DNA of 64,000 nucleotides from Gemmatimonadota bacterium (GCA_039715185.1 JBDLIA010000006.1:1736-65735), one strand, 5' to 3'. Counted from the stretch's first letter, positions 17,615 to 63,296 are shown. The notes: generated from the letters alone by a model not told the origin. Program-made: numbers and translations.

Positions 17615-17950
17615 ATGACGACCACCCAGCCCCCGGAGCTCACTCTGGCGGAGGCGCAGCGCGAGGTAGACGCGTGGATCGGCCAGTTCCGGGAGGGATA
17701 CTGGCCGCCCCTGGCGAACCTGGCGCGCCTGATCGAGGAAGTGGGCGAACTCGCCCGCGAGGTAAACCACCGCCACGGCCCGAAAAGGAAGCGCGCGGAC
17801 GAGCCGGACGGAGACCTCGCGCTCGAGCTGGGAGACGTGCTGTTCGTGCTGATGGCTCTCGCCAACGAGCAAGGCATCGACCTGGACGACGCGCTACGCC
17901 GCGTGCTCGAGAAGTACCGGGAGCGCGATTCGGGGCGCTGGGAGCGCTAG
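17615..17950 (+). CDS. MazG-like nucleotide pyrophosphohydrolase
   Basis: ATG at 17615 inside ORF 17027..17950. The EEVGELAREV ... ELGDVLFVLMALANEQGIDLDDAL helix pair is typical of small MazG proteins. Confidence 0.8.
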   Translation: MTTTQPPELTLAEAQREVDAWIGQFREGYWPPLANLARLIEEVGELAREVNHRHGPKRKRADEPDGDLALELGDVLFVLMALANEQGIDLDDALRRVLEKYRERDSGRWER

Positions 17951-18114
17951 TGTGCCGGCGCGGAAGTCCCGTGTGCACCGAGGCGCGTGATGCGCCCGCG
18001 GGGCAAGGCGGAACGACGCGCCGTAGCCGTCGCTACGGCAAGGAGTTCCAACGCCGCATCCGCGGGATGCAGCGCGAGCCGAATGCCTACGGGACTTCTG
18101 CAACGGTACGCTAG
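17949..18114. repeat. 166-bp structured repeat element, copy A (identical to 42757-42922)
   Basis: Base-by-base comparison shows 166/166 identity with copy B in the same orientation; the flanks differ immediately. Multiple nested stems. Its first 2 nt are part of the MazG TAG stop codon. Confidence 0.9.
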
Positions 18115-18118
18115 GCCC

Positions 18119-18262
18119 TCAGGCGAAAAAGCTCAGCGCCAACAGGACCGCGCCCACTACCAGCGCGATCTTCGCGAGCGTGAGCAGGGTTCGAATCACG
18201 AACCCCACGACCGCGACTCCGATGAGGACCGCCGCCAGGACCGCCAATGGGCCTATCGTCAT
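18119..18262 (-). CDS. Small (47 aa) hydrophobic membrane protein, below the ORF-track cutoff
   Basis: Translated by hand: MTIGPLAVLAAVLIGVAVVGFVIRTLLTLAKIALVVGAVLLALSFFA. Two predicted TM helices. ATG lies 9 nt downstream of the oxidoreductase stop on the same strand. Confidence 0.4.
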   Translation of the reverse strand: MTIGPLAVLAAVLIGVAVVGFVIRTLLTLAKIALVVGAVLLALSFFA

Positions 18263-39121: not shown

Positions 39122-42100
39122 CTAGAACTCCCATTCCAGGCCCAAGCGGATCTGCCGCGGCTGGCCGAACTGCTGGCCGTACACGATGTTCGTCTGGTTC
39201 GCGTCCGTCCCCGAATTCAGGAACGACAACGCCGAGCTGAGCTGCTGCTCGTCGACCGACAGCACGCCGTCTCCATTGCCGAAGAACACGTCCCGGCGGC
39301 GCAACTGCTCGCGCTGCAGGTCGGTAAGCGCGCTCCCCAGGAGCGTGGCGGTCGGGTCCGTGTAAGCGACTTCCTCACCGAACACGCGCTGCGTGCCCGA
39401 CGTCCGGTTGGACAGGAAGTTCGCGCCCGGGTTGAGCACGTCGCCCGTCAAGCTCCACACGTCGTTCGGGTTCTTGAAGTTCGCGATGTTGCGGACGTCG
39501 ACGTAGGCCCGCACGCGCATGTCCCTGGGCAGCTCGAAGGCCTTGCCGACGCTGGCGTTGAGCAGGAACGTCCACGGCAGGCGCGACCCGTTGACCTCCT
39601 CGTTGAAGACCGGGTCCGGCCCCAGAATGCTGGCCGTCGCGCCGGGCGTGGTCGACGAGGTGTACGGCAGCCCCGAGCGGGCCGAGAGCGCGCCGTTCAG
39701 CGTGACGTTGCGCAGAACCTTGTTGAGGCCGCTGCGCTCCTCCAGGAAGTCGTCCGGCATCGTCATGACCAGCGAACCCGTGAACGTGTGGGTCCGGTCG
39801 AAATCGGCCGGCAACGCCGCCTGCGGCGGAACGAACGGCTGACCAGTCACCGGATTCGCCTGGCGTCCGATGGTGCGCAGGAAGTTGGTCGGGTCGGAGC
39901 CCGTGGTGCGCGTGGTCAGGAAGCTGTAGTTCACCTGCGCGAAGAGCAGGTCCGTCCAGCGCCGGCTCAGGCGCGCGTCCATGCCGCGCACGTAGCCGAA
40001 GTCGCCGTTGGTCAGGAAGGCGACCGTCTTGGCGCCGCCCTGGCCCGGAATCACCAACTGCGCCTGGCGGAACGCTATGTCACCCTGCTTCTCGCGCGTG
40101 TAGCCGGAGATGTCCACGACGGTCAGCGGATCGAACGAGTGCGTGAAGCCGAACTCGTAGCCGATCGTGCGCCCGAACTCGATGGGCCGCCCGAAGATGT
40201 TGTTCGGGTTGGTCTTGGACAGGTCGTTGGTGATGCCGCCGAACAGGAAGTTGAGCGGGGGCGCCTGCGTGAAGTGCCCGTAGCTCAGCCTGAACTGGGT
40301 GTTCTCGGTGACCGGGAACCCTACCCCCAGGCGCGGGCTGAACTGCCACACCGTGGCCTGCTCGATGAACTCCGGCTCGACGAGCCCCAACTCGGGGTCC
40401 TGGGCCGCGATCGTGAAGCCCGGGATCGCCGGGTACACGACGTCGCTGTCGAACATGTCGACGCGGCCGCCTATCTCCAGCACGATGTCGCCGATGTCGA
40501 TGCGGTCCTTGGCGTAGAAGCCCGCGATGACAGGCGAGGCGGCGTACACGTTCTGGAACGTCGGGCTGGTGTTGCTGACGCCGCTCTGCGCGGTGCCGAA
40601 CGAGCTGCCCGAGCCGATGTTCTCGATGTCCTTCCAGTAGACCTCTCCGCCGATGCCGACGCGGTTGTGGCGGTTGTACTGCCAGTCCAGGTCGGCACGC
40701 ACGGACAGCGTCTGCTCCCTGCGGAGGCCGAAGGGCGAGAAGCCCTGGCCGAAGAAGTCGTTGATGCCGAACGGATTGTCCGCTCCGCCACCCGCCGTCT
40801 GGAAGAGGGCGCCCTCTTCCAGCGTGAAGTTCTCGCCCGTGGCCGGGTTGACGATGGTCTCGAAGGGCGTCAGGAAGCCGAGCGACGGGTTTTCCTGGAT
40901 CTCGTCGAAGCGCTCGAACCAGGCGTCCGTGGTAAAGCTGTCCTCGAACGGGAACGTGAAGTCGTCGAACGTGAAGCCGAAGAAATCGCCTCCCTGCTCG
41001 AACTTTTCGCCCTGGATGATCGCCAGAGTGTCGGCTAGGGTCTCGCCGAGCATGCCGCGCATGAACTCGTCCTCGCCGTAGCCGACGTTGACGCGCAGCG
41101 TGGCGCTGGACTCCGAGGTCTGGAAGAGCAGGTGCTCGATGCCCCCCCTGATCAAGTAGCTCTTGTCGCGGCGACCCAGCATCGCCTGCGGCCGGAATGC
41201 GTACCGCGGCGAAAAGAACCGGCGCTGGTTGCGCGCCAGCGTCACGCCCGCGTTGTAGCGCGTCCCCGCGCCCGTGCCGCCGCGCAGCGTCAGGTTCAGG
41301 TTGTACTCGTCGCCGTTGTTCCAGGGTAGCTTGGCGCCGATGTCATCTCCGGAGCAAGAGGCCCCGGACGGCGTGCCGTTCGAGCAGATCTCCGCGAAAT
41401 TGTTGACGATGGTGCCGTCGTCGAGCGTCGTCTGCGTGCCCGTCGGCGCGAAGAACCGATCCGGCTGCGCGCCGATCGTCAGGTTGTCGAAGTCGGCGAA
41501 CGTCAGCGTCCCGGGGGAATCGCCCAGGCGGGTCGGCCGGGCGTCCTCCTGGCCGACAGCTACGCCGGACAGCGAGAAGCCCAGGTACTCGCCGAAGATC
41601 GGCCCGGCCACGCTCGCCTCCAGGCGCGTGTAACCATAGCTGTTCTCGATCTCGACCTGGTCGGTCTCGAGGGCGATGGAGCCGCTGAACGCGGTGCCGC
41701 CGCCCTTCGAGATCAGGTTGATCACGCCGGACTGGGCCTGACCGAACTCGGCGCCGAAGCCGCCGAGCAGCACGTCGGCCTCTTCCACCGCGTTGGTCTG
41801 AAGCGTGATCTCGCTCTGCGAGCCCGCGTTGAAGTTGCGCACCAGGACGCCGTCGATGAAGACCGCGGCCTCGCCGGGGCGCCCGCCGCGGATCACCTGA
41901 CCCAGGCGGCTGCCGGTGTCGACGACGCCCGGCTGCAGGGCGATGACGGCGCGCACGTTGTCCAGCGGAACGGCGTCGAAAACCTCCGACGTGATGATCG
42001 CCTTGGACAGCGTCTGGTCACGCGGCACGAGCGGGTTGGTCTCACCTTGGACGGTGATCCCCTCGATCTGTACCGCCTGCTGCGACAGCCCGAAGTCCAC

Positions 42101-42418
42101 GATCGCTGACTGGCCGGCCAGCACGCGCTGACCGGTCACGGTCACCGTGCCGTAGCCGATGAACTGTGCCCGGATGTCGTGAACGCCGGCCGGTACGTTG
42201 TTGACGAAGTAGTAGCCTTCCGCGTTGGCGATGTTGCCCAGCGTGGTTCCGACCACGGTAATCTGGGCACCCGCCAACGGTGCGCCGGATTCCGCGTCGC
42301 GGACGTGGCCTTCGAGCTTCCCTTGCGTCGCCTGGGCGAGCAGGGAAGTCGAGGCCGCCGCAAACGCGACTCCGACGAGGAAAGCCGTTAGACCGGCGCG
42401 CCTCACCGAAACGTGCAT
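39122..42418 (-). CDS. TonB-dependent receptor with N-terminal carboxypeptidase-regulatory-like domain (SusC/RagA-like)
   Basis: Signal peptide. GKLEGHVRDAESGAPLAGAQITVVGTTLGNIANAEGYYFVNNVPAGVHDIRAQFIGY is the CarboxypepD_reg domain. Plug and barrel follow. Terminal ...LGLEWEF. Confidence 0.85.
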   Translation of the reverse strand: MHVSVRRAGLTAFLVGVAFAAASTSLLAQATQGKLEGHVRDAESGAPLAGAQITVVGTTLGNIANAEGYYFVNNVPAGVHDIRAQFIGYGTVTVTGQRVLAGQSAIVDFGLSQQAVQIEGITVQGETNPLVPRDQTLSKAIITSEVFDAVPLDNVRAVIALQPGVVDTGSRLGQVIRGGRPGEAAVFIDGVLVRNFNAGSQSEITLQTNAVEEADVLLGGFGAEFGQAQSGVINLISKGGGTAFSGSIALETDQVEIENSYGYTRLEASVAGPIFGEYLGFSLSGVAVGQEDARPTRLGDSPGTLTFADFDNLTIGAQPDRFFAPTGTQTTLDDGTIVNNFAEICSNGTPSGASCSGDDIGAKLPWNNGDEYNLNLTLRGGTGAGTRYNAGVTLARNQRRFFSPRYAFRPQAMLGRRDKSYLIRGGIEHLLFQTSESSATLRVNVGYGEDEFMRGMLGETLADTLAIIQGEKFEQGGDFFGFTFDDFTFPFEDSFTTDAWFERFDEIQENPSLGFLTPFETIVNPATGENFTLEEGALFQTAGGGADNPFGINDFFGQGFSPFGLRREQTLSVRADLDWQYNRHNRVGIGGEVYWKDIENIGSGSSFGTAQSGVSNTSPTFQNVYAASPVIAGFYAKDRIDIGDIVLEIGGRVDMFDSDVVYPAIPGFTIAAQDPELGLVEPEFIEQATVWQFSPRLGVGFPVTENTQFRLSYGHFTQAPPLNFLFGGITNDLSKTNPNNIFGRPIEFGRTIGYEFGFTHSFDPLTVVDISGYTREKQGDIAFRQAQLVIPGQGGAKTVAFLTNGDFGYVRGMDARLSRRWTDLLFAQVNYSFLTTRTTGSDPTNFLRTIGRQANPVTGQPFVPPQAALPADFDRTHTFTGSLVMTMPDDFLEERSGLNKVLRNVTLNGALSARSGLPYTSSTTPGATASILGPDPVFNEEVNGSRLPWTFLLNASVGKAFELPRDMRVRAYVDVRNIANFKNPNDVWSLTGDVLNPGANFLSNRTSGTQRVFGEEVAYTDPTATLLGSALTDLQREQLRRRDVFFGNGDGVLSVDEQQLSSALSFLNSGTDANQTNIVYGQQFGQPRQIRLGLEWEF

Positions 42419-42562: not shown

Positions 42563-42591
42563 AGCCTACCGTTGAGCCAGTTTGGTGTCAA
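42563..42591 (-). promoter_or_regulatory. Candidate sigma70-type promoter for the TonB-receptor operon
   Basis: On the minus strand: TTGACA (complement of 42586-42591), a 17-nt spacer, then TAGGCT (complement of 42563-42568). Sits in the only AT-richer patch of the 500-nt intergenic region, about 140 nt upstream of the ATG at 42418. Confidence 0.35.
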
Positions 42592-42756
42592 GAGTGCGTA
42601 ACCTATCTATTTAACTGCAACTTGCGCGGGTGCGATCCCCGGACTTCGTACGCCCCGCGTCCGCCTGAGACAGACTCACCGGAACGTGTACTGGAGAACG
42701 ACCGAGCGCCCCCACACGTGACGCCTCCCGGTCAGGGACTTGTCAGAGAAGTATCG

Positions 42757-42922
42757 AGTGTGCCGGCGCGGAAGTCCCGTGTGCACCGAGGCGCGTGATG
42801 CGCCCGCGGGGCAAGGCGGAACGACGCGCCGTAGCCGTCGCTACGGCAAGGAGTTCCAACGCCGCATCCGCGGGATGCAGCGCGAGCCGAATGCCTACGG
42901 GACTTCTGCAACGGTACGCTAG
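42757..42922. repeat. 166-bp structured repeat element, copy B (identical to 17949-18114)
   Basis: 166/166 identity with copy A in the same orientation. Its last nucleotides (cta, 42919-42921) are the complement of the trpE TAG stop codon. Confidence 0.9.
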
Positions 42923-44421
42923 CGGCCGGAGCGCTCGAGGGCGGCCGCGACGCGGAGCAGCGCGCGCGCCTTGGCGAGCGTCTCGTCGTACTCGCGATCG
43001 GGATCCGAGTCGATCACGATCCCCGCCCCCGCCTGCACCGAAGCGACGCCCGCCGAAACGGTCATCGTGCGGATGGCGATGGCCGTGTCCATCACCGCCC
43101 CTCCGTAGCCGATGTAACCGATGGCGCCGGCGTAGGGCCCACGTCTGGTGGGTTCCAGCTCGTCGATGATCTCCATCGCCCGCACCTTGGGCGCGCCGGA
43201 CACCGTGCCGGCCGGGAAGCACGCGCGTAGCACGTCCAGCGCGTCCAGGTCGGAGCGGAGCGCGCCCTCCACCTGGCTCACGAGGTGCAGGACGTGGCTG
43301 TAGCGCTCCACGTCGCGCAGCCTGGTCACCCGGACGGATCCGTGGTCGGCGACGCGGCCCACGTCGTTGCGGCCCAGGTCGACGAGCATGAGGTGCTCGG
43401 CGAGCTCCTTGGGGTCGCCCCTCAGCTCTTCCTCCAGGCGGGCGTCTTCCGCCGCCGAGCCGCCGCGCGGTCGCGTCCCCGCGATGGGGCGCACCGTGAC
43501 CACACCGCCCTCGAGCCGCACCATGACCTCGGGCGAAGAGCCGACGATGGCCATGCCGTCCAGGTCCAGGTAGAACAGGTACGGCGAGGGGTTCGTGGTC
43601 CTCAGCAGCCGGTAGGCGTCGAGGGGCTCCGCCGTGAGCGGCATGGTCAGCCGTTGCGACAGCACCACCTGGTACGCGTCTCCCTGGGCGATGTAGGCGC
43701 GCACGCGCTGGACCGCCTCCTTGAAGCGCTCGCGCGTAAAGGTGGACCGGAAGGCGGCGTCCGCGTCCTCAGCGCGCAGCTCCAGAGGAGGCAGGTCGGG
43801 CCCCGACTCCAGCCGGCCTATCGTCTCCTCGATCGTCTCGACCGCGTCGTCGTAAAGGCGCCGCAGGTCGGCGCCGTCCGGATCGCCGGAGGCGTCGACC
43901 AACCGAATCGCGCGCGCGCGGCCGAACAGGTTGTCGATCGCGACGACGATGTCGGTCAGCATGAAGACGCCGTCGGGGATACCGGCGTCGTCCGGCGGCG
44001 CGGCCGGCAGCCGTTCGATGTAGCGGACCGCGTCGTACGCGAGGAAGCCGACCAGGCCGCCCAGGAACCTGGGCAGCCCTTCGACCTGAACTGGCGACAG
44101 GGTACCGGCCAGCGAGGTCAGCTCGGCCAGCGGGTCTTGCAGTACCATGGCGGGGCCCCAACCCTCAGCGGGCGTCCAGGCGCGCACCGCGCCGCCCGGA
44201 TCGACGCGCCAGGCGGCGCGCGGCTCGGTGCCCAGAAAGGTGTAACGGGCCCACGTCTCGCCGCCGACGACGGATTCGAACAGGAATCCGAACGGCGGGC
44301 GCGCGACGCGCCTGTACGCGCCTACGGCGGTATCCCTGTCGAACAGGAATTCGCGCCAGACGGGGATCAGGTCTCCCCTCTCGCGCAGCGCGAGGAAGTC
44401 GTCGAAACTCGGGCCTATCAC
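42919..44421 (-). CDS. trpE: Anthranilate synthase component I
   Basis: 500 aa. LFESVVGGETWARYTFLG, VTVRPIAGTRPRG, HLMLVDLGRNDVGRV, GTVSGAPKVRAMEIIDELE and GAGIVIDSDP are canonical TrpE motifs. Confidence 0.9.
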   Translation of the reverse strand: MIGPSFDDFLALRERGDLIPVWREFLFDRDTAVGAYRRVARPPFGFLFESVVGGETWARYTFLGTEPRAAWRVDPGGAVRAWTPAEGWGPAMVLQDPLAELTSLAGTLSPVQVEGLPRFLGGLVGFLAYDAVRYIERLPAAPPDDAGIPDGVFMLTDIVVAIDNLFGRARAIRLVDASGDPDGADLRRLYDDAVETIEETIGRLESGPDLPPLELRAEDADAAFRSTFTRERFKEAVQRVRAYIAQGDAYQVVLSQRLTMPLTAEPLDAYRLLRTTNPSPYLFYLDLDGMAIVGSSPEVMVRLEGGVVTVRPIAGTRPRGGSAAEDARLEEELRGDPKELAEHLMLVDLGRNDVGRVADHGSVRVTRLRDVERYSHVLHLVSQVEGALRSDLDALDVLRACFPAGTVSGAPKVRAMEIIDELEPTRRGPYAGAIGYIGYGGAVMDTAIAIRTMTVSAGVASVQAGAGIVIDSDPDREYDETLAKARALLRVAAALERSGR

Positions 44422-58199: not shown

Positions 58200-58400
58200 G
58201 GGTCGGCCCCGGCGCTGAAAGCCGGAGCCGATGACAGACGAGAGTACGCGGGCGGTGCCAAACGGAAGCCGGTGAGATTCCGGCGCGGCCCCGCCACTGT
58301 GAGAGGCCCCGGCAACTGCGCCGGGCCAGGCCCGTTCAGCGAGCCACTGGAGCGAGATCTCCGGGAAGGCGAGCGGCGCCGCCTCGAGCCAGGAGACCGG
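58200..58400 (+). promoter_or_regulatory. Cobalamin (B12) riboswitch
   Basis: GGTGCCAAACGGAAGCCGGTGAGATTCCGGCGCGGCCCCGCCACTGTGA core, plus the B12 box AGCCACTGG...GGGAAGGC. Located 5' of B12-type uptake genes. Confidence 0.85.
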
Positions 58401-61331: not shown

Positions 61332-63296
61332 ATGCGCATCCGTACTGCCCTCGGCGTCGCGACCACGACGCTTTGCCTTCTGGTTGCCCCGGGCGCGGCC
61401 CAGGAGTCCGCGGACACGGTCGTCTACCCGCTGCCCGGGCTGAGCGTCACCGCGCTACGCCTTCCGGTGCCTCGGGCCGCCGTACCGCTGAACGTGACGG
61501 TGGTCGATGGGGAGACGCTGCGAGCGCGCGGAATACGGTCGCTGGCCGAAGCGCTCGATGAGTGGGCGGGGATAACCGTCGTCGAAACCGGCTCGTTCGG
61601 AGGCACGACCTCCATCTTCGTGCGCGGCGGCGAGAGCGACTACGTGCGCGTGCTGATCGATGGCGTTCCCGTGAACGCCCCGGGCGGGGGGCTGAACATC
61701 GCCCACCTGACGGCAGCAAACATCGATCGCATCGAGGTCGTACGCGGTCCCAGCAGCGTGCTGTACGGATCCGATGCGGTGGCCGCGGTGATCGAGATAC
61801 ACACCAGGGAGGGTGCGGGCGCGCCGAAGTTGGACGCGCGCGCGCGGGGCGGCAGCCACGGCACCGTGGACCTGGCGGTCGCGGTCTTCGGGGGCGGCGA
61901 CCGGCTCTCCTACTCGGCGTCGCTGTCCAACTTCGACACCGACGGAGTATTGGATTTCAACAACCAGTATCGAAACACGGAGGCCAGCGCCCGCCTGGCG
62001 CTCCAGCCCGATGAGCTCACCTCGATAGCGCTTTCGCTGCGCTACTCGGACCACGACTTCCACTTCCCGACCAACGGCGCCGGCGCGCTCGTCGACCGAA
62101 ATCAGTTCACCGCGGGCGACCGCACGGTGGCGTCGCTGGACGCCAGCCGCCGTTTCGGCCCTGTGGAGGCGGAGATCACGCTCGGAGCGCACCGCAGCGA
62201 CGAGGGCATCCGCGACGCGTTCGATGACGCGGAAGACGCCGAATCGCTGCGCACCGACGACGAGGCGCGACGGCTGCTCGCGGACGCCCGTGCGCACGTT
62301 CGGTTGGAGGAGACCGCGGTCCTGACTATCGGCGGTCTGGTCGAGGACGAATCGCTGGAGACGGCGCTCGCCTCCGAGAGCTCTTTCGGGCCATTCGAGA
62401 GCGCCGCGGCCAACGATCGATCCACGCGCGCCCTGTACGGTCAGGTCCTCCTCACGCCGCGTACCGACGTGTCGCTCACCGGAGGTGTGCGTTACGAGGA
62501 CAACGAAATCTTCGGAAGCCACACGACCTGGCGCCTGGGGGCGTCCTTCGCCCCCGCGGCTGCGCTCCGCGTGCGCGCGTCGGCCGGAACGGGCTTCAAG
62601 GAGCCGACCTTCTTCGAGAACTTCGCGGAAGGATTCGCGCTGGGGAATCCGGATCTCGTGCCGGAGGAATCGCGGAGTTGGGAGGTCGGGTTGGACGCCG
62701 CCACCCGGGACGGTGCGGCGACCCTCTCGGCGACTTTCTTCGATCAGCGCTTCGACGAGCTGATCGACTTCACGTTTGCGCCGCCGGTGGACGGAGACCC
62801 CAACTTCTTCAACATCGCGCGCGCCGATGCCCGGGGCATGGAGATAAGCGGGGAGGCAGCGCTCGGCGGCGGCATCGGGATCGCCGCGGACTACACGTGG
62901 CTGGACACCGAGGTGCGCGATCCGGGGTTCGACGTGACGGCCGACGCCACGTTCGCGCCCGGCCAACGGCTCTTGCGCCGGCCTCGGCACTCCTGGTCTT
63001 CGCGCGTCACATGGCGTTCACAAGCCGTCGGCGTCCTGGCCGCGGAAGGGCGCTACGTCGGCGCCAGAGAAGATCAGGACTTCTCTTCCTTCCCCGCGGT
63101 CCGCGTGGAGTCCGACGCGTTCTTCCTGCTGGACGTGTCCGCCGAGGTACCCCTGCTCCGTTCGGACCGCGGGCGCCGCTTGGCGGCCGTCGTGCGAATC
63201 GAGAATCTGCTCGACGAGAGCTACGAGGATCCCACCGGGTTTCAGGCGCGAGGCTTCACCGTGCTGGCCGGCCTACGCGCAGGACTCGGTCGTTGA
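61332..63296 (+). CDS. btuB: TonB-dependent receptor (BtuB-like)
   Basis: Signal peptide. TonB-box-like DTVVYPLPGLSVTA. Plug motifs IEVVRGPSSVLYGSDAVAAVI. Last gene of the riboswitch-controlled operon. Confidence 0.8.
   Translation: MRIRTALGVATTTLCLLVAPGAAQESADTVVYPLPGLSVTALRLPVPRAAVPLNVTVVDGETLRARGIRSLAEALDEWAGITVVETGSFGGTTSIFVRGGESDYVRVLIDGVPVNAPGGGLNIAHLTAANIDRIEVVRGPSSVLYGSDAVAAVIEIHTREGAGAPKLDARARGGSHGTVDLAVAVFGGGDRLSYSASLSNFDTDGVLDFNNQYRNTEASARLALQPDELTSIALSLRYSDHDFHFPTNGAGALVDRNQFTAGDRTVASLDASRRFGPVEAEITLGAHRSDEGIRDAFDDAEDAESLRTDDEARRLLADARAHVRLEETAVLTIGGLVEDESLETALASESSFGPFESAAANDRSTRALYGQVLLTPRTDVSLTGGVRYEDNEIFGSHTTWRLGASFAPAAALRVRASAGTGFKEPTFFENFAEGFALGNPDLVPEESRSWEVGLDAATRDGAATLSATFFDQRFDELIDFTFAPPVDGDPNFFNIARADARGMEISGEAALGGGIGIAADYTWLDTEVRDPGFDVTADATFAPGQRLLRRPRHSWSSRVTWRSQAVGVLAAEGRYVGAREDQDFSSFPAVRVESDAFFLLDVSAEVPLLRSDRGRRLAAVVRIENLLDESYEDPTGFQARGFTVLAGLRAGLGR

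What the first reader, a model, noticed from the sequence alone, without database searches (positions are those of the whole stretch)
17949..18114. Perfectly conserved, highly structured 166-nt non-coding element present twice (17949-18114 and 42757-42922)
The same 166 nt occur twice in the same orientation. Base-by-base comparison finds no mismatch, and the flanks diverge immediately (t vs g before, g vs c after). I saw no other long repeat in the window, so 166 nt of non-coding identity implies recent duplication or mobility, or strong selection.

The sequence is densely self-complementary:
- Outer stem: GCGGAAGTCCCGT (element nt 12-24) with ACGGGACTTCTGC (nt 141-153).
- Inner hairpin GGCGC-GTGAT-GCGCC (nt 34-48).
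- Inner hairpin GCCGTAGC-CGTC-GCTACGGC (nt 72-91), nested in GGAAC/GTTCC (nt 62-66 / 97-101).
- Inner hairpin GCATCC-GCG-GGATGC (nt 108-122).

I do not recognise it as tRNA, SRP, 6S, RNase P, tmRNA, a group II intron domain or any riboswitch class. It may be a new structured RNA or a new non-autonomous mobile element.
Basis: seen in the sequence. Interest (0 to 1): 0.75.

Follow-up and report, generated by a model that had tools for sequence, protein, structure and literature searches.

The report
Small hairpin transposon inserted at stop codons
The twice-repeated 166-nt sequence is a miniature, non-coding "jumping" DNA element (a MITE) that landed on CTAG/TAG stop-codon sites; it is a fairly ordinary kind of element, but belongs to an apparently undescribed family shared with Streptomyces.

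Summary
The same 166 nt occur at 17949-18114 and 42757-42922, 100% identical, in the same orientation, with unrelated flanks.

It is a non-autonomous transposon (MITE), not an established RNA gene.
- A relative with a 95% identical MazG protein has an empty site: one CTAG where the window has CTAG + 164 nt.
- An 80% relative keeps trpE-receptor synteny without the element.
- The element has 23-nt imperfect terminal inverted repeats (18/23). At copy 1 its flanks fit a TA duplication inside CTAG. Its ends regenerate the TAG stops of mazG and trpE.

It is a distant member of a 160-180-nt hairpin family that I recovered from Streptomyces plasmids and soil metagenomes. A covariance model built without the window hits both copies (E 4e-6 and 6e-5).
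- In that family about 60% of copies sit on a TAG stop codon, in either orientation.
- The main subfamily's terminal 20 nt equal the end of an IS5-family insertion sequence that also inserts C-TA-G.

Rfam has no match.

Unexplained:
- The central motifs (GCAAGGCGGA, CAACGC) are better conserved than the termini.
- One strand always folds better (38/38), through G-U pairs.

Verdict: new member of a known kind; moderate interest.

The parts
17950..18111 (+). MITE copy 1 (162 nt if TA is the duplication; 164 nt are added relative to the empty site)
   Evidence: 100% repeat. Absent from the orthologous site of a relative with a 95% identical MazG protein (L017). CM R1 hit 17948-18113 +, 33.7 bits, E 4e-6.
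17947..17950 (.). Left CTAG of copy 1. It holds the TAG stop of the mazG-like gene and the putative TA duplication (17948-17949).
   Evidence: Sequence. The relative has a single CTAG here.
18111..18114 (.). Right CTAG of copy 1 (putative TA duplication 18112-18113)
   Evidence: Sequence; empty-site comparison.
17950..17972 (+). Left terminal inverted repeat GTGTGCCGGCGCGGAAGTCCCGT
   Evidence: 18/23 identical to the reverse complement of the right end (read). It pairs with the right end in the fold.
18089..18111 (+). Right terminal inverted repeat ACGGGACTTCTGCAACGGTACGC
   Evidence: As above. Its reverse complement shares GTTGC..AAGT with ends of IS5-family insertion sequences (z 4.1 vs L074; GTTGCAGAAG 10/10 with the IS in L008 and L066).
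18003..18012 (+). Core motif GCAAGGCGGA
   Evidence: Shared with the Streptomyces element L002, which was found with a pattern that did not include this motif. Intact in most of the BLAST-derived copies that were not selected by this motif, and the best-conserved region of those 9 copies.
18020..18039 (+). Apical hairpin GCCGTAGC-CGTC-GCTACGGC
   Evidence: Fold. The homologous hairpin differs in sequence between family members while each keeps its own stem, read by eye from the alignment; it lies outside the consensus pairs counted.
18049..18054 (+). Core motif CAACGC
   Evidence: Same 76-nt spacing between GCAAGGCGGA and the 3' arm as in L002. Conserved in the family.
42758..42919 (+). MITE copy 2
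   Evidence: 100% repeat. Relatives with 80% identical trpE keep trpE-receptor synteny with a 311-nt spacer instead of 500 nt and lack the element. CM R1 hit 42756-42921 +, 28.6 bits, E 6e-5.
42755..42758 (.). Left flank of copy 2 reads CGAG, not CTAG (G at 42756 where TA duplication predicts T)
   Evidence: Sequence. The same bases appear in the separate Logan contig L004.
42919..42922 (.). Right CTAG of copy 2. Its CTA (42919-42921) is the stop codon of trpE on the minus strand.
   Evidence: ORF list. The trpE homologue in relatives is 7 aa longer.
17615..17950 (+). mazG-like nucleotide pyrophosphohydrolase (111 aa); its stop codon is the insertion site
   Evidence: P0121 is 100% identical, Pfam PF03819.
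18119..18262 (-). Conserved 47-aa ORF convergent with mazG. In the relative its stop lies 4 nt from the mazG stop.
   Evidence: Called gene in L017 and L019; alignment.
42919..44421 (-). trpE (anthranilate synthase I, 500 aa)
   Evidence: P0001 is 100% identical.
39122..42418 (-). TonB-dependent receptor. Copy 2 lies 338 nt upstream of its start codon.

Best explanation
The 166-nt repeat is two copies of a miniature inverted-repeat transposable element (MITE): a 162-nt, non-coding DNA transposon with imperfect 23-nt terminal inverted repeats.

Inferred mechanism. A transposase encoded elsewhere in the genome binds the two ends, cuts the element out (or copies it) and inserts it at a TA inside a CTAG-like site, duplicating the TA. 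In a 70% G+C genome CTAG is rare and often contains a TAG stop codon, so insertions land exactly on stop codons. Each end of the element starts with G, so TA+G rebuilds the stop and the insertion is tolerated.

The most likely helper is an IS5-family DDE transposase of the clade that in Streptomyces carries the same termini as the main subfamily of this element family. An IS630-type enzyme is the alternative.

Once inserted, the element places a very stable hairpin directly after the gene. This probably acts as a 3'-end barrier or terminator-like structure in read-through transcripts. That last step is inference only.
For: Shown:
- Two identical copies with unrelated flanks.
- A precise empty site. 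Relative L017 reads GAACGCTAGGCGCTCA where the window reads GAGCGCTAG[164 nt]GCCCTCA.
- Relatives L006 and L007 lack copy 2 while both flanks align.
- Terminal inverted repeats, 18/23.
- No Rfam family.
- A covariance model built only from 37 actinobacterial elements finds both window copies end to end on the + strand (E 4e-6 and 6e-5; next hit E 0.29).
- In that family the flanks are CTAG/CTAG in most copies. The variants TTAG on the left and CTAA on the right fit a TA duplication in N-TA-N and contradict a 4-bp duplication.
- A TAG stop of a real-looking gene coincides with the left end in about 12 copies and with the right end in about 14, of 39 (24 distinct copies, two of them at both ends), so there is no orientation bias.
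- Recent mismatches in the stems show no strand bias (22 G-U vs 16 A-C), so inserted copies decay neutrally.
- The terminal 20 nt of subfamily A equal the end of an IS5-family insertion sequence (L069, L070; NF033580 at 131 bits). An intact 946-bp relative (L073) is flanked C-TA...TA-G on a gene's stop codon.
- CTAG occurs 22 times in the window against 176 expected, and at least 9 of the 22 lie on stop codons.

Established knowledge: IS630 makes a 2-bp duplication at CTAG (PMC2577343, Table 1).
Against: - Copy 2 has GA, not TA, on its left flank. The only dinucleotide repeated at both copies is AG. Blunt insertion into CT|AG, or an AG duplication, fits the same sequences.
- No transposase with matching ends was found for the window element. 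Its left repeat is not significantly similar to any IS end tested, and its right repeat only modestly so (z 4.1).
- No IS5 or IS630 transposase lies in the window.
- Only two copies are known in this lineage. The genome, metagenome and protein searches found no others.
- The family was retrieved with motifs taken from the window element, which inflates the model score.
- The central motifs are better conserved than the termini. One strand always folds better. A plain cut-and-paste MITE does not predict either.
Confidence: 0.8

Rival explanations
1. It is a gene for a structured small RNA (or a mobile RNA module). The + strand transcript is the functional product, and the DNA mobility is only its means of spread.
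For: - The + strand folds better than the - strand in 38 of 38 family members, by 24 kcal/mol on average, with 4-12 G-U pairs against 0-5.
- In the interior stems G-U cells outnumber A-C cells 159 to 21.
- Interior stems covary: 18 of 26 pairs of the main helix show double changes.
- Unpaired core motifs are the best conserved part in the pattern-unbiased copies (0.86 and 0.81 pairwise identity vs 0.67-0.68 for the termini).
- The core is shared between Actinomycetota and a Gemmatimonadota MAG.
Against: - No promoter or terminator signal in the element, and no Rfam family.
- Orientation relative to neighbouring genes is random, so host transcripts carry either strand.
- Recent mutations show no strand preference.
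- Complementary arms are expected of inverted-repeat DNA.
- The invariance of the core in 32 of the 37 aligned sequences is imposed by my search pattern.
Confidence: 0.1
2. It is moved as single-stranded DNA by a non-DDE enzyme (HUH nuclease such as a RAYT or IS200/IS605 TnpA, or a serine recombinase). Insertion would be next to ..AG without a true duplication, and the hairpin of one strand would be the substrate.
For: - Only AG is shared by the left flanks of the two window copies.
- CGAG left flanks recur in the family (L062; L009 is similar).
- The strand asymmetry of the fold and the conserved central loops are what a hairpin-recognising enzyme would select.
Against: - The ends are true inverted repeats, and in subfamily A they equal the end of a DDE (IS5-family) insertion sequence.
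- REP-type elements are defined by terminal 20-40-nt palindromes, not a conserved centre.
- No HUH or serine recombinase gene was seen near any copy.
- The TTAG and CTAA flank variants fit N-TA-N.
Confidence: 0.07
3. It is a MITE, but the helper is an IS630/Tc1-mariner-type transposase rather than an IS5-family one.
For: - TA duplication at CTAG is the IS630 hallmark (PMC2577343, Table 1).
- RUP is an IS630-mobilised MITE (PMC2229807).
- IS630 elements sit in the CTAG flanks of family members in L008 and L055.
Against: - IS630 ends tested (L008, L063) are not similar to the family's termini. z is 1.7 or lower, except one outlier (L048 vs L063, z 3.2).
- IS5-family ends match subfamily A 20/20.
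Confidence: 0.15
4. The repeat is an assembly artefact, or a segmental duplication or gene conversion without transposition.
For: The source is a metagenome-assembled genome. Perfect identity could come from mis-joined contigs.
Against: - Logan contigs assembled separately from run SRR27843388 reproduce the left junction of each copy.
- The insertion is exact to the base at a CTAG.
- Homologous elements with the same architecture exist in complete Streptomyces plasmids.
Confidence: 0.02

Closest known systems
Correia / NEMIS elements of Neisseria
   Same: Both are 100-160-bp non-coding elements with about 26-bp inverted ends, found by the hundred between genes. Their transcripts fold into long hairpins that RNase III cuts (PMC2229807). 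The TA target is from my own knowledge. The parent transposase is unknown in both cases.
   Different: I saw no sequence similarity. Correia carries an IHF site and promoter-like ends. The present family has a conserved asymmetric core, and about 60% of its copies lie exactly on TAG stop codons.
RUP of Streptococcus pneumoniae (IS630-Spn1-mobilised MITE)
   Same: Both have a TA target. Termini that match an insertion sequence serve as the evidence for trans-mobilisation (PMC2229807).
   Different: RUP's termini match IS630. Here the matching insertion sequence is IS5-family, and IS630 ends do not match.
IS5-family insertion sequences of Streptomyces (transpos_IS5_3 clade; also the IS112/IS1373 type)
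   Same: Ends of the form GGGCGTGTTTCGAAAGT. Insertion as C-TA...TA-G, often on a stop codon (L073, L064-L067).
   Different: These are 840-950 bp and encode a DDE transposase. The element here is 162 nt, non-coding, and its interior is unrelated to theirs.
REPIN / BIME (REP doublets moved by RAYT)
   Same: Both are roughly 100-nt extragenic hairpins, often between convergent genes, and non-autonomous.
   Different: REPINs conserve the terminal REP palindromes and vary in the centre. Here the centre is the most conserved part, and the ends match a DDE insertion sequence. No RAYT gene was seen.

Membership tests
MITE (generic) | Short (under about 300 bp), no coding capacity for a transposase | tested here: met
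   162-166 nt. A search with the element-encoded peptide found nothing. No transposase in the window.
MITE (generic) | Terminal inverted repeats | tested here: met
   23-nt ends, 18/23 complementary; they pair in the fold.
MITE (generic) | Target-site duplication flanking each copy | tested here: inconclusive
   Copy 1 fits TA (or CTAG). Copy 2 has GA/TA, and only AG is common to both. Family flanks favour TA in N-TA-N.
MITE (generic) | Presence/absence polymorphism at orthologous sites | tested here: met
   Empty sites in L017 and in L006 and L007.
MITE (generic) | Several dispersed copies in one genome | tested here: inconclusive
   Two identical copies in 64 kb. The rest of the genome could not be searched. 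Six near-identical subfamily B copies occur in one metagenome.
MITE (generic) | Autonomous element with matching ends | tested here: inconclusive
   Met for Streptomyces subfamily A (20/20 with L069 and L070). For the window element, only the right end is modestly similar (z 4.1).
Actinobacterial CTAG-flanked hairpin element family (defined here, alignment A5, model R1) | Significant end-to-end match to the family covariance model on one strand | tested here: met
   33.7 and 28.6 bits, E 4e-6 and 6e-5; - strand 10.5 bits. True members score 81-204 bits, so the window element is a distant member. The score is helped by motifs used for retrieval.
Actinobacterial CTAG-flanked hairpin element family (defined here, alignment A5, model R1) | Core motifs GCAAGGCGGA and CAACGC at fixed spacing from the 3' arm; CTAG 12-14 nt outside AAGT/ACTT | tested here: met
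   Seen against L002, which was retrieved with the arm pattern only; alignment.
IS630-derived MITE (RUP type) | Ends similar to an IS630-family element | tested here: not met
   Window ends and the main subfamilies vs IS630 ends from L008 and L063 give z of 1.7 or lower; one outlier family member (L048 vs L063) reaches z 3.2.
IS5-family-derived MITE | Ends similar to an IS5-family element; same target | tested here: inconclusive
   Right end z 4.1 (p 0.004); left end not significant. The C-TA-G target is shared.
Any Rfam RNA family | Score at or above the family's gathering threshold | tested here: not met
   Only a cobalamin riboswitch elsewhere in the window. Best hit on the element is RsmV at 13 bits against a threshold of 100. 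Nothing on the Streptomyces copies.
Intrinsic (Rho-independent) terminator | G+C-rich hairpin followed by a T run | tested here: not met
   No site found at either copy.
REP / REPIN | Conserved terminal REP palindrome with 5' GTAG, and a RAYT gene in the genome | not tested
   No GTAG-type REP is visible in the sequence. The genome outside the window is not available.

The most novel reading that the evidence does not exclude
The conserved, asymmetric centre (GCAAGGCGGA / apical hairpin / CAACGC) would be a functional single-stranded module: an RNA, or a DNA hairpin read by a protein. It would ride on interchangeable transposon ends and have crossed between Actinomycetota and Gemmatimonadota. 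The family would then be a mobile structured-RNA or regulatory cassette rather than inert selfish DNA.
Probability: 0.15. Interest if true: 0.65.

Novelty: new member of a known kind. Interest (0 to 1): 0.35.

Why it matters
For genome annotation, this explains a perfect non-coding repeat and two gene ends.
- The stop codons of mazG and trpE are rebuilt or supplied by the element.
- trpE may have been shortened by it.
- Two direct copies 24.8 kb apart are a substrate for deletion by recombination.

More broadly, the work defines an apparently undescribed MITE family.
- It is common on Streptomyces plasmids (64 records, 108 places) and in soil metagenomes.
- It ties the family's termini to an IS5-family insertion sequence.
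- It shows a tidy rule: CTAG/TA-targeting elements in high-G+C genomes accumulate exactly on TAG stop codons, because their terminal G restores the stop.

A distant relative in a Gemmatimonadota MAG points to transfer between phyla.

The open point is why the centre is better conserved than the ends, and why one strand always folds better. It could be tested with existing Streptomyces RNA-seq data.

Tried and rejected
- Rfam, at gathering thresholds and at E up to 10, on the window and on Streptomyces copies: nothing.
- First metagenome pattern (both arms plus CAAGGCGG): 0 hits.
- Viral contigs and phage genomes: 0 hits.
- The two Planctomycetaceae hits of the genome scan are an unrelated repeat.
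- Orientation bias relative to genes looked real in the first 8 loci (6 to 1) but vanished with 39 (12 to 14).
- The idea that the interior derives from the subterminal parts of a parent insertion sequence: no homology to any IS fetched.
- IS630 as the parent: its ends do not match.
- Search for other copies through element-encoded peptides: none.
- Attempts to read more of the source contig returned only short Logan contigs.
- Literature searches by topic and by sequence string found no description of this family.
- sso-like CS-6 (TAGCGT), bridge RNA, retron and omega-RNA analogies were considered from memory. I dropped them because the motifs are not conserved or no partner gene is adjacent.

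Full report
**1. The observation**

The window (70% G+C) holds one long repeat: 17949-18114 and 42757-42922, 166 nt, 100% identical, same orientation. All other repeat families are 45 nt or shorter at 66-83% identity. A string comparison confirms identity, and the bases just outside differ (T/G before, G/C after). nhmmer and blastn find no degraded copy.

- The + strand RNA minimum-energy fold is a rod of -111.5 kcal/mol (z -9.05). The - strand gives -93.2 (z -5.4).
The best fold that keeps his two local hairpins is -100.2. With DNA parameters the branched form is the optimum.

Two Logan contigs assembled separately from run SRR27843388 carry the left junction of each copy and end 18-24 nt inside the element. 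This is the behaviour of an assembly graph at a real repeat. I do not know whether that run is the one the MAG came from, and the right junctions were not covered.

**2. Context**

The source is an NCBI metagenome-assembled Gemmatimonadota genome (trpE and MazG proteins 100% identical to named records).
- Copy 1 lies between a 111-aa mazG-like gene (+; its TAG stop at 17948-17950 overlaps the repeat by 2 nt) and a conserved 47-aa ORF (-; stop at 18119-18121).
- Copy 2 lies between the upstream region of a TonB-dependent receptor gene (-) and trpE (-). The trpE stop codon (cta, 42919-42921) is inside the repeat's right end.

**3. It is an insertion**

A JGI contig encodes a MazG protein 95% identical (L017). 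It reads ...GAACGCTAGGCGCTCA..., that is mazG TAG, 4 nt, then the stop of the 47-aa ORF. The window reads ...GAGCGCTAG[164 nt ending CTAG]GCCCTCA.... One CTAG in the empty site has become two.

Contigs with 80% identical trpE (L006, L007) keep trpE followed by the receptor gene, with a 311-nt spacer instead of 500 nt. Both flanks align, including CTGACAAGTCCCTGACCG next to the site, and the element is absent. None of the relatives' contigs contains a copy.

**4. Anatomy**

- Read as C-TA-[G...C]-TA-G, the element is 162 nt (17950-18111).
- Its ends are GTGTGCCGGCGCGGAAGTCCCGT and, on the other strand, GCGTACCGTTGCAGAAGTCCCGT, 18/23 identical.
- Both ends start with G. An insertion into the TA of a TAG stop therefore restores TAG in either orientation.
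- Copy 2 departs from this. Its left flank is CGAG, also seen in the separate Logan contig.

There are two readings of copy 2.
- A T-to-G change after insertion at trpE's own CTAG.
- The target was CGAG, so only AG is duplicated (or insertion is blunt in C-N|A-G). In that case the element cut four codons off trpE and supplied the new stop.

The poorly conserved sequence of the relative (CGGAAAAC against CGATAC) slightly favours the second reading. I cannot decide between them.

**5. Relatives elsewhere**

A scan of 185,579 species genomes for the inner arm pair (GGAAGTCCCGT ... ACGGGACTTC) gave one relevant hit. It is a 178-nt hairpin in Streptomyces sp. MspMP-M5, flanked by CTAG on both sides. 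Beyond the pattern used, it shares GCAAGGCGGA and CAACGC, and the same 76-nt spacing between GCAAGGCGGA and the 3' arm.

- BLAST of that element finds 108 places on 64 Streptomyces plasmids at 71-87% identity.
- A metagenome scan with the shared motifs gave 41 loci, 39 of them real.
- The family is 161-182 nt long and has subfamilies with different termini: GGGCGTGTTTCGAAAGT, GGGCCTGTCTCGAAGT, GGGGGTGTCCGCAAAGT.
- It has a common centre: TCGCAAGGCGGAGG, a variable apical hairpin, then CGACAACGCGGCGAG.
- None of it is in Rfam. I found no description in the literature library.

A covariance model built from 37 actinobacterial copies, without the window, hits both window copies end to end on the + strand: 33.7 bits (E 4e-6) and 28.6 bits (E 6e-5). 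The next hit has E 0.29, and the - strand of the same site scores 10.5 bits. True members score 81-204 bits, so the window element is a distant member. The score is also helped by motifs I used for retrieval.

**6. Target and gene context in the family**

- Flanks are CTAG/CTAG in most copies.
- The variants TTAG on the left and CTAA on the right (L010, L023, L032, L046, L062) fit a TA duplication in a target N-TA-N. They contradict a 4-bp duplication.
- Other variants (CTGG, CCAG, CGAG) look like decayed TA.
- In 24 of 39 copies a TAG stop of an ORF with coding-type codon bias coincides with a flanking CTAG: 12 on the left and 14 on the right, two copies counted at both ends. There is therefore no orientation preference.
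- In the window CTAG occurs 22 times against 176 expected from composition, and at least 9 of the 22 lie on stop codons.

**7. Likely helper**

Two plasmid loci (L069, L070) carry the end of an IS5-family element (NF033580 at 131 bits against a cut-off of 110; Pfam DDE_Tnp_1). Its last 20 nt, including the CTAG, are identical to subfamily A's terminus. Relatives differ by 1-2 nt.

- An intact 946-bp copy (L073) is flanked C-TA...TA-G and sits on the stop codon of an alcohol dehydrogenase gene.
- IS112/IS1373-type IS5 elements show the same flanks.
- End-to-end alignment scores against shuffles: subfamily A z 6-9.5; subfamily B up to 4.6; window right end 4.1 (p 0.004); window left end not significant.
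- Against IS630 ends, z is 1.7 or lower, with one outlier at 3.2 (L048 vs L063).
- IS630 is the textbook TA-in-CTAG element (PMC2577343, Table 1). IS630 copies have inserted into the CTAGs that flank family members (L008, L055). So the target alone does not discriminate between the two helpers.
- The interior of the small element is unrelated to the interiors of these insertion sequences.
- No such transposase lies in the window.

**8. Structure**

- On the family alignment 94.7% of cells pair, and 33 of 51 pairs show changes on both sides (0 of 500 shuffles reach this; slid controls 33-47% paired).
- This alone does not show an RNA, because inverted-repeat DNA gives the same signal.
- What is strand-specific: all 38 elements tested fold better on the + strand, by 24 kcal/mol on average, with 4-12 G-U pairs against 0-5. 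In the interior stems G-U cells outnumber A-C cells 159 to 21.
- Rare, presumably recent, mismatches are unbiased (22 G-U vs 16 A-C, p 0.42).
- The asymmetry is therefore a property of the source lineages. Inserted copies decay neutrally.
- In the nine copies obtained by BLAST, which are unbiased by my motif pattern, the two core motifs are the best conserved regions: 0.86 and 0.81 pairwise identity, against 0.67-0.68 for the termini and 0.57 for the apical hairpin.
- No sigma-70-like promoter or hairpin-plus-T-run terminator lies in the element.

**9. Conclusion**

Shown:
- a real, exact repeat;
- a precise insertion relative to close relatives;
- inverted ends;
- a CTAG/TA-type target on stop codons;
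- distant membership of a dispersed family whose main subfamily has the termini of an IS5-family insertion sequence.

Inferred:
- trans-mobilisation by a DDE transposase (IS5-family more likely than IS630);
- tolerance of the insertion because the stop codon is rebuilt;
- a passive 3' hairpin effect on neighbouring transcripts.

Unexplained:
- the GA flank of copy 2;
- the conserved asymmetric core;
- the constant preference for one strand.

These last points keep a small probability for an RNA-level or single-strand-level function.

Noticed in passing
window 58264-58397 (+): Cobalamin riboswitch aptamer (RF00174, 63.9 bits, E 1.8e-13). It lies upstream of a cluster that includes an ABC transporter ATPase and a TonB-dependent receptor (61332-63296).
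   Followed up: partly
window 42563-42591 (-): Promoter-like TTGACA-17 nt-TAGGCT about 145 nt upstream of the TonB-dependent receptor gene. It is conserved in the 80% relatives L006 and L007. The element lies further upstream and leaves it intact. The consensus scan did not report it; I read it by eye from the alignment.
   Followed up: no
window, whole: CTAG is about 8-fold under-represented (22 observed, 176 expected from base composition). At least 9 of the 22 overlap stop codons of coding-looking ORFs.
   Followed up: partly
L008:4175-6183 (Streptomyces cavourensis plasmid): The right-hand CTAG of a family member has been hit twice more: by an 875-bp IS5-like element and by an IS630 element inserted back to back. 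The flanking CTAGs of these small elements are themselves insertion hot spots. In L055 an IS630 end abuts the left CTAG in the same way.
   Followed up: partly
L001:700-959 and L003:5080-5391 (Planctomycetaceae MAG): An unrelated repeat with 24-nt inverted arms (GAAGTCCCGTAGGGACGATTGAAT) around an ~83-nt core. The core is in opposite orientation in the two copies while the outer flanks are alike. This could be an invertible segment or a palindromic mobile unit.
   Followed up: no
L061:484-662 and L062:1714-1905: Family members with extra sequence inserted into the left arm only, so the left arm tolerates insertions.
   Followed up: no
window 18119-18262 (-): A 47-aa hydrophobic ORF between mazG and an alcohol dehydrogenase gene is conserved and called as a gene in relatives (L017, L019). 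It is probably a real small membrane protein.
   Followed up: no
L010:5302-5401 (-): Group II intron domain (RF00029, 46.4 bits) about 1.1 kb from a family member on a Streptomyces plasmid.
   Followed up: no
L069:1960-2080: Next to the IS5 end that matches the small element's terminus, the last ~35 nt of the transposase coding sequence (KLAVRYEATVL) occur again in inverted orientation across the CTAG. This looks like a head-to-head remnant of a second copy.
   Followed up: no
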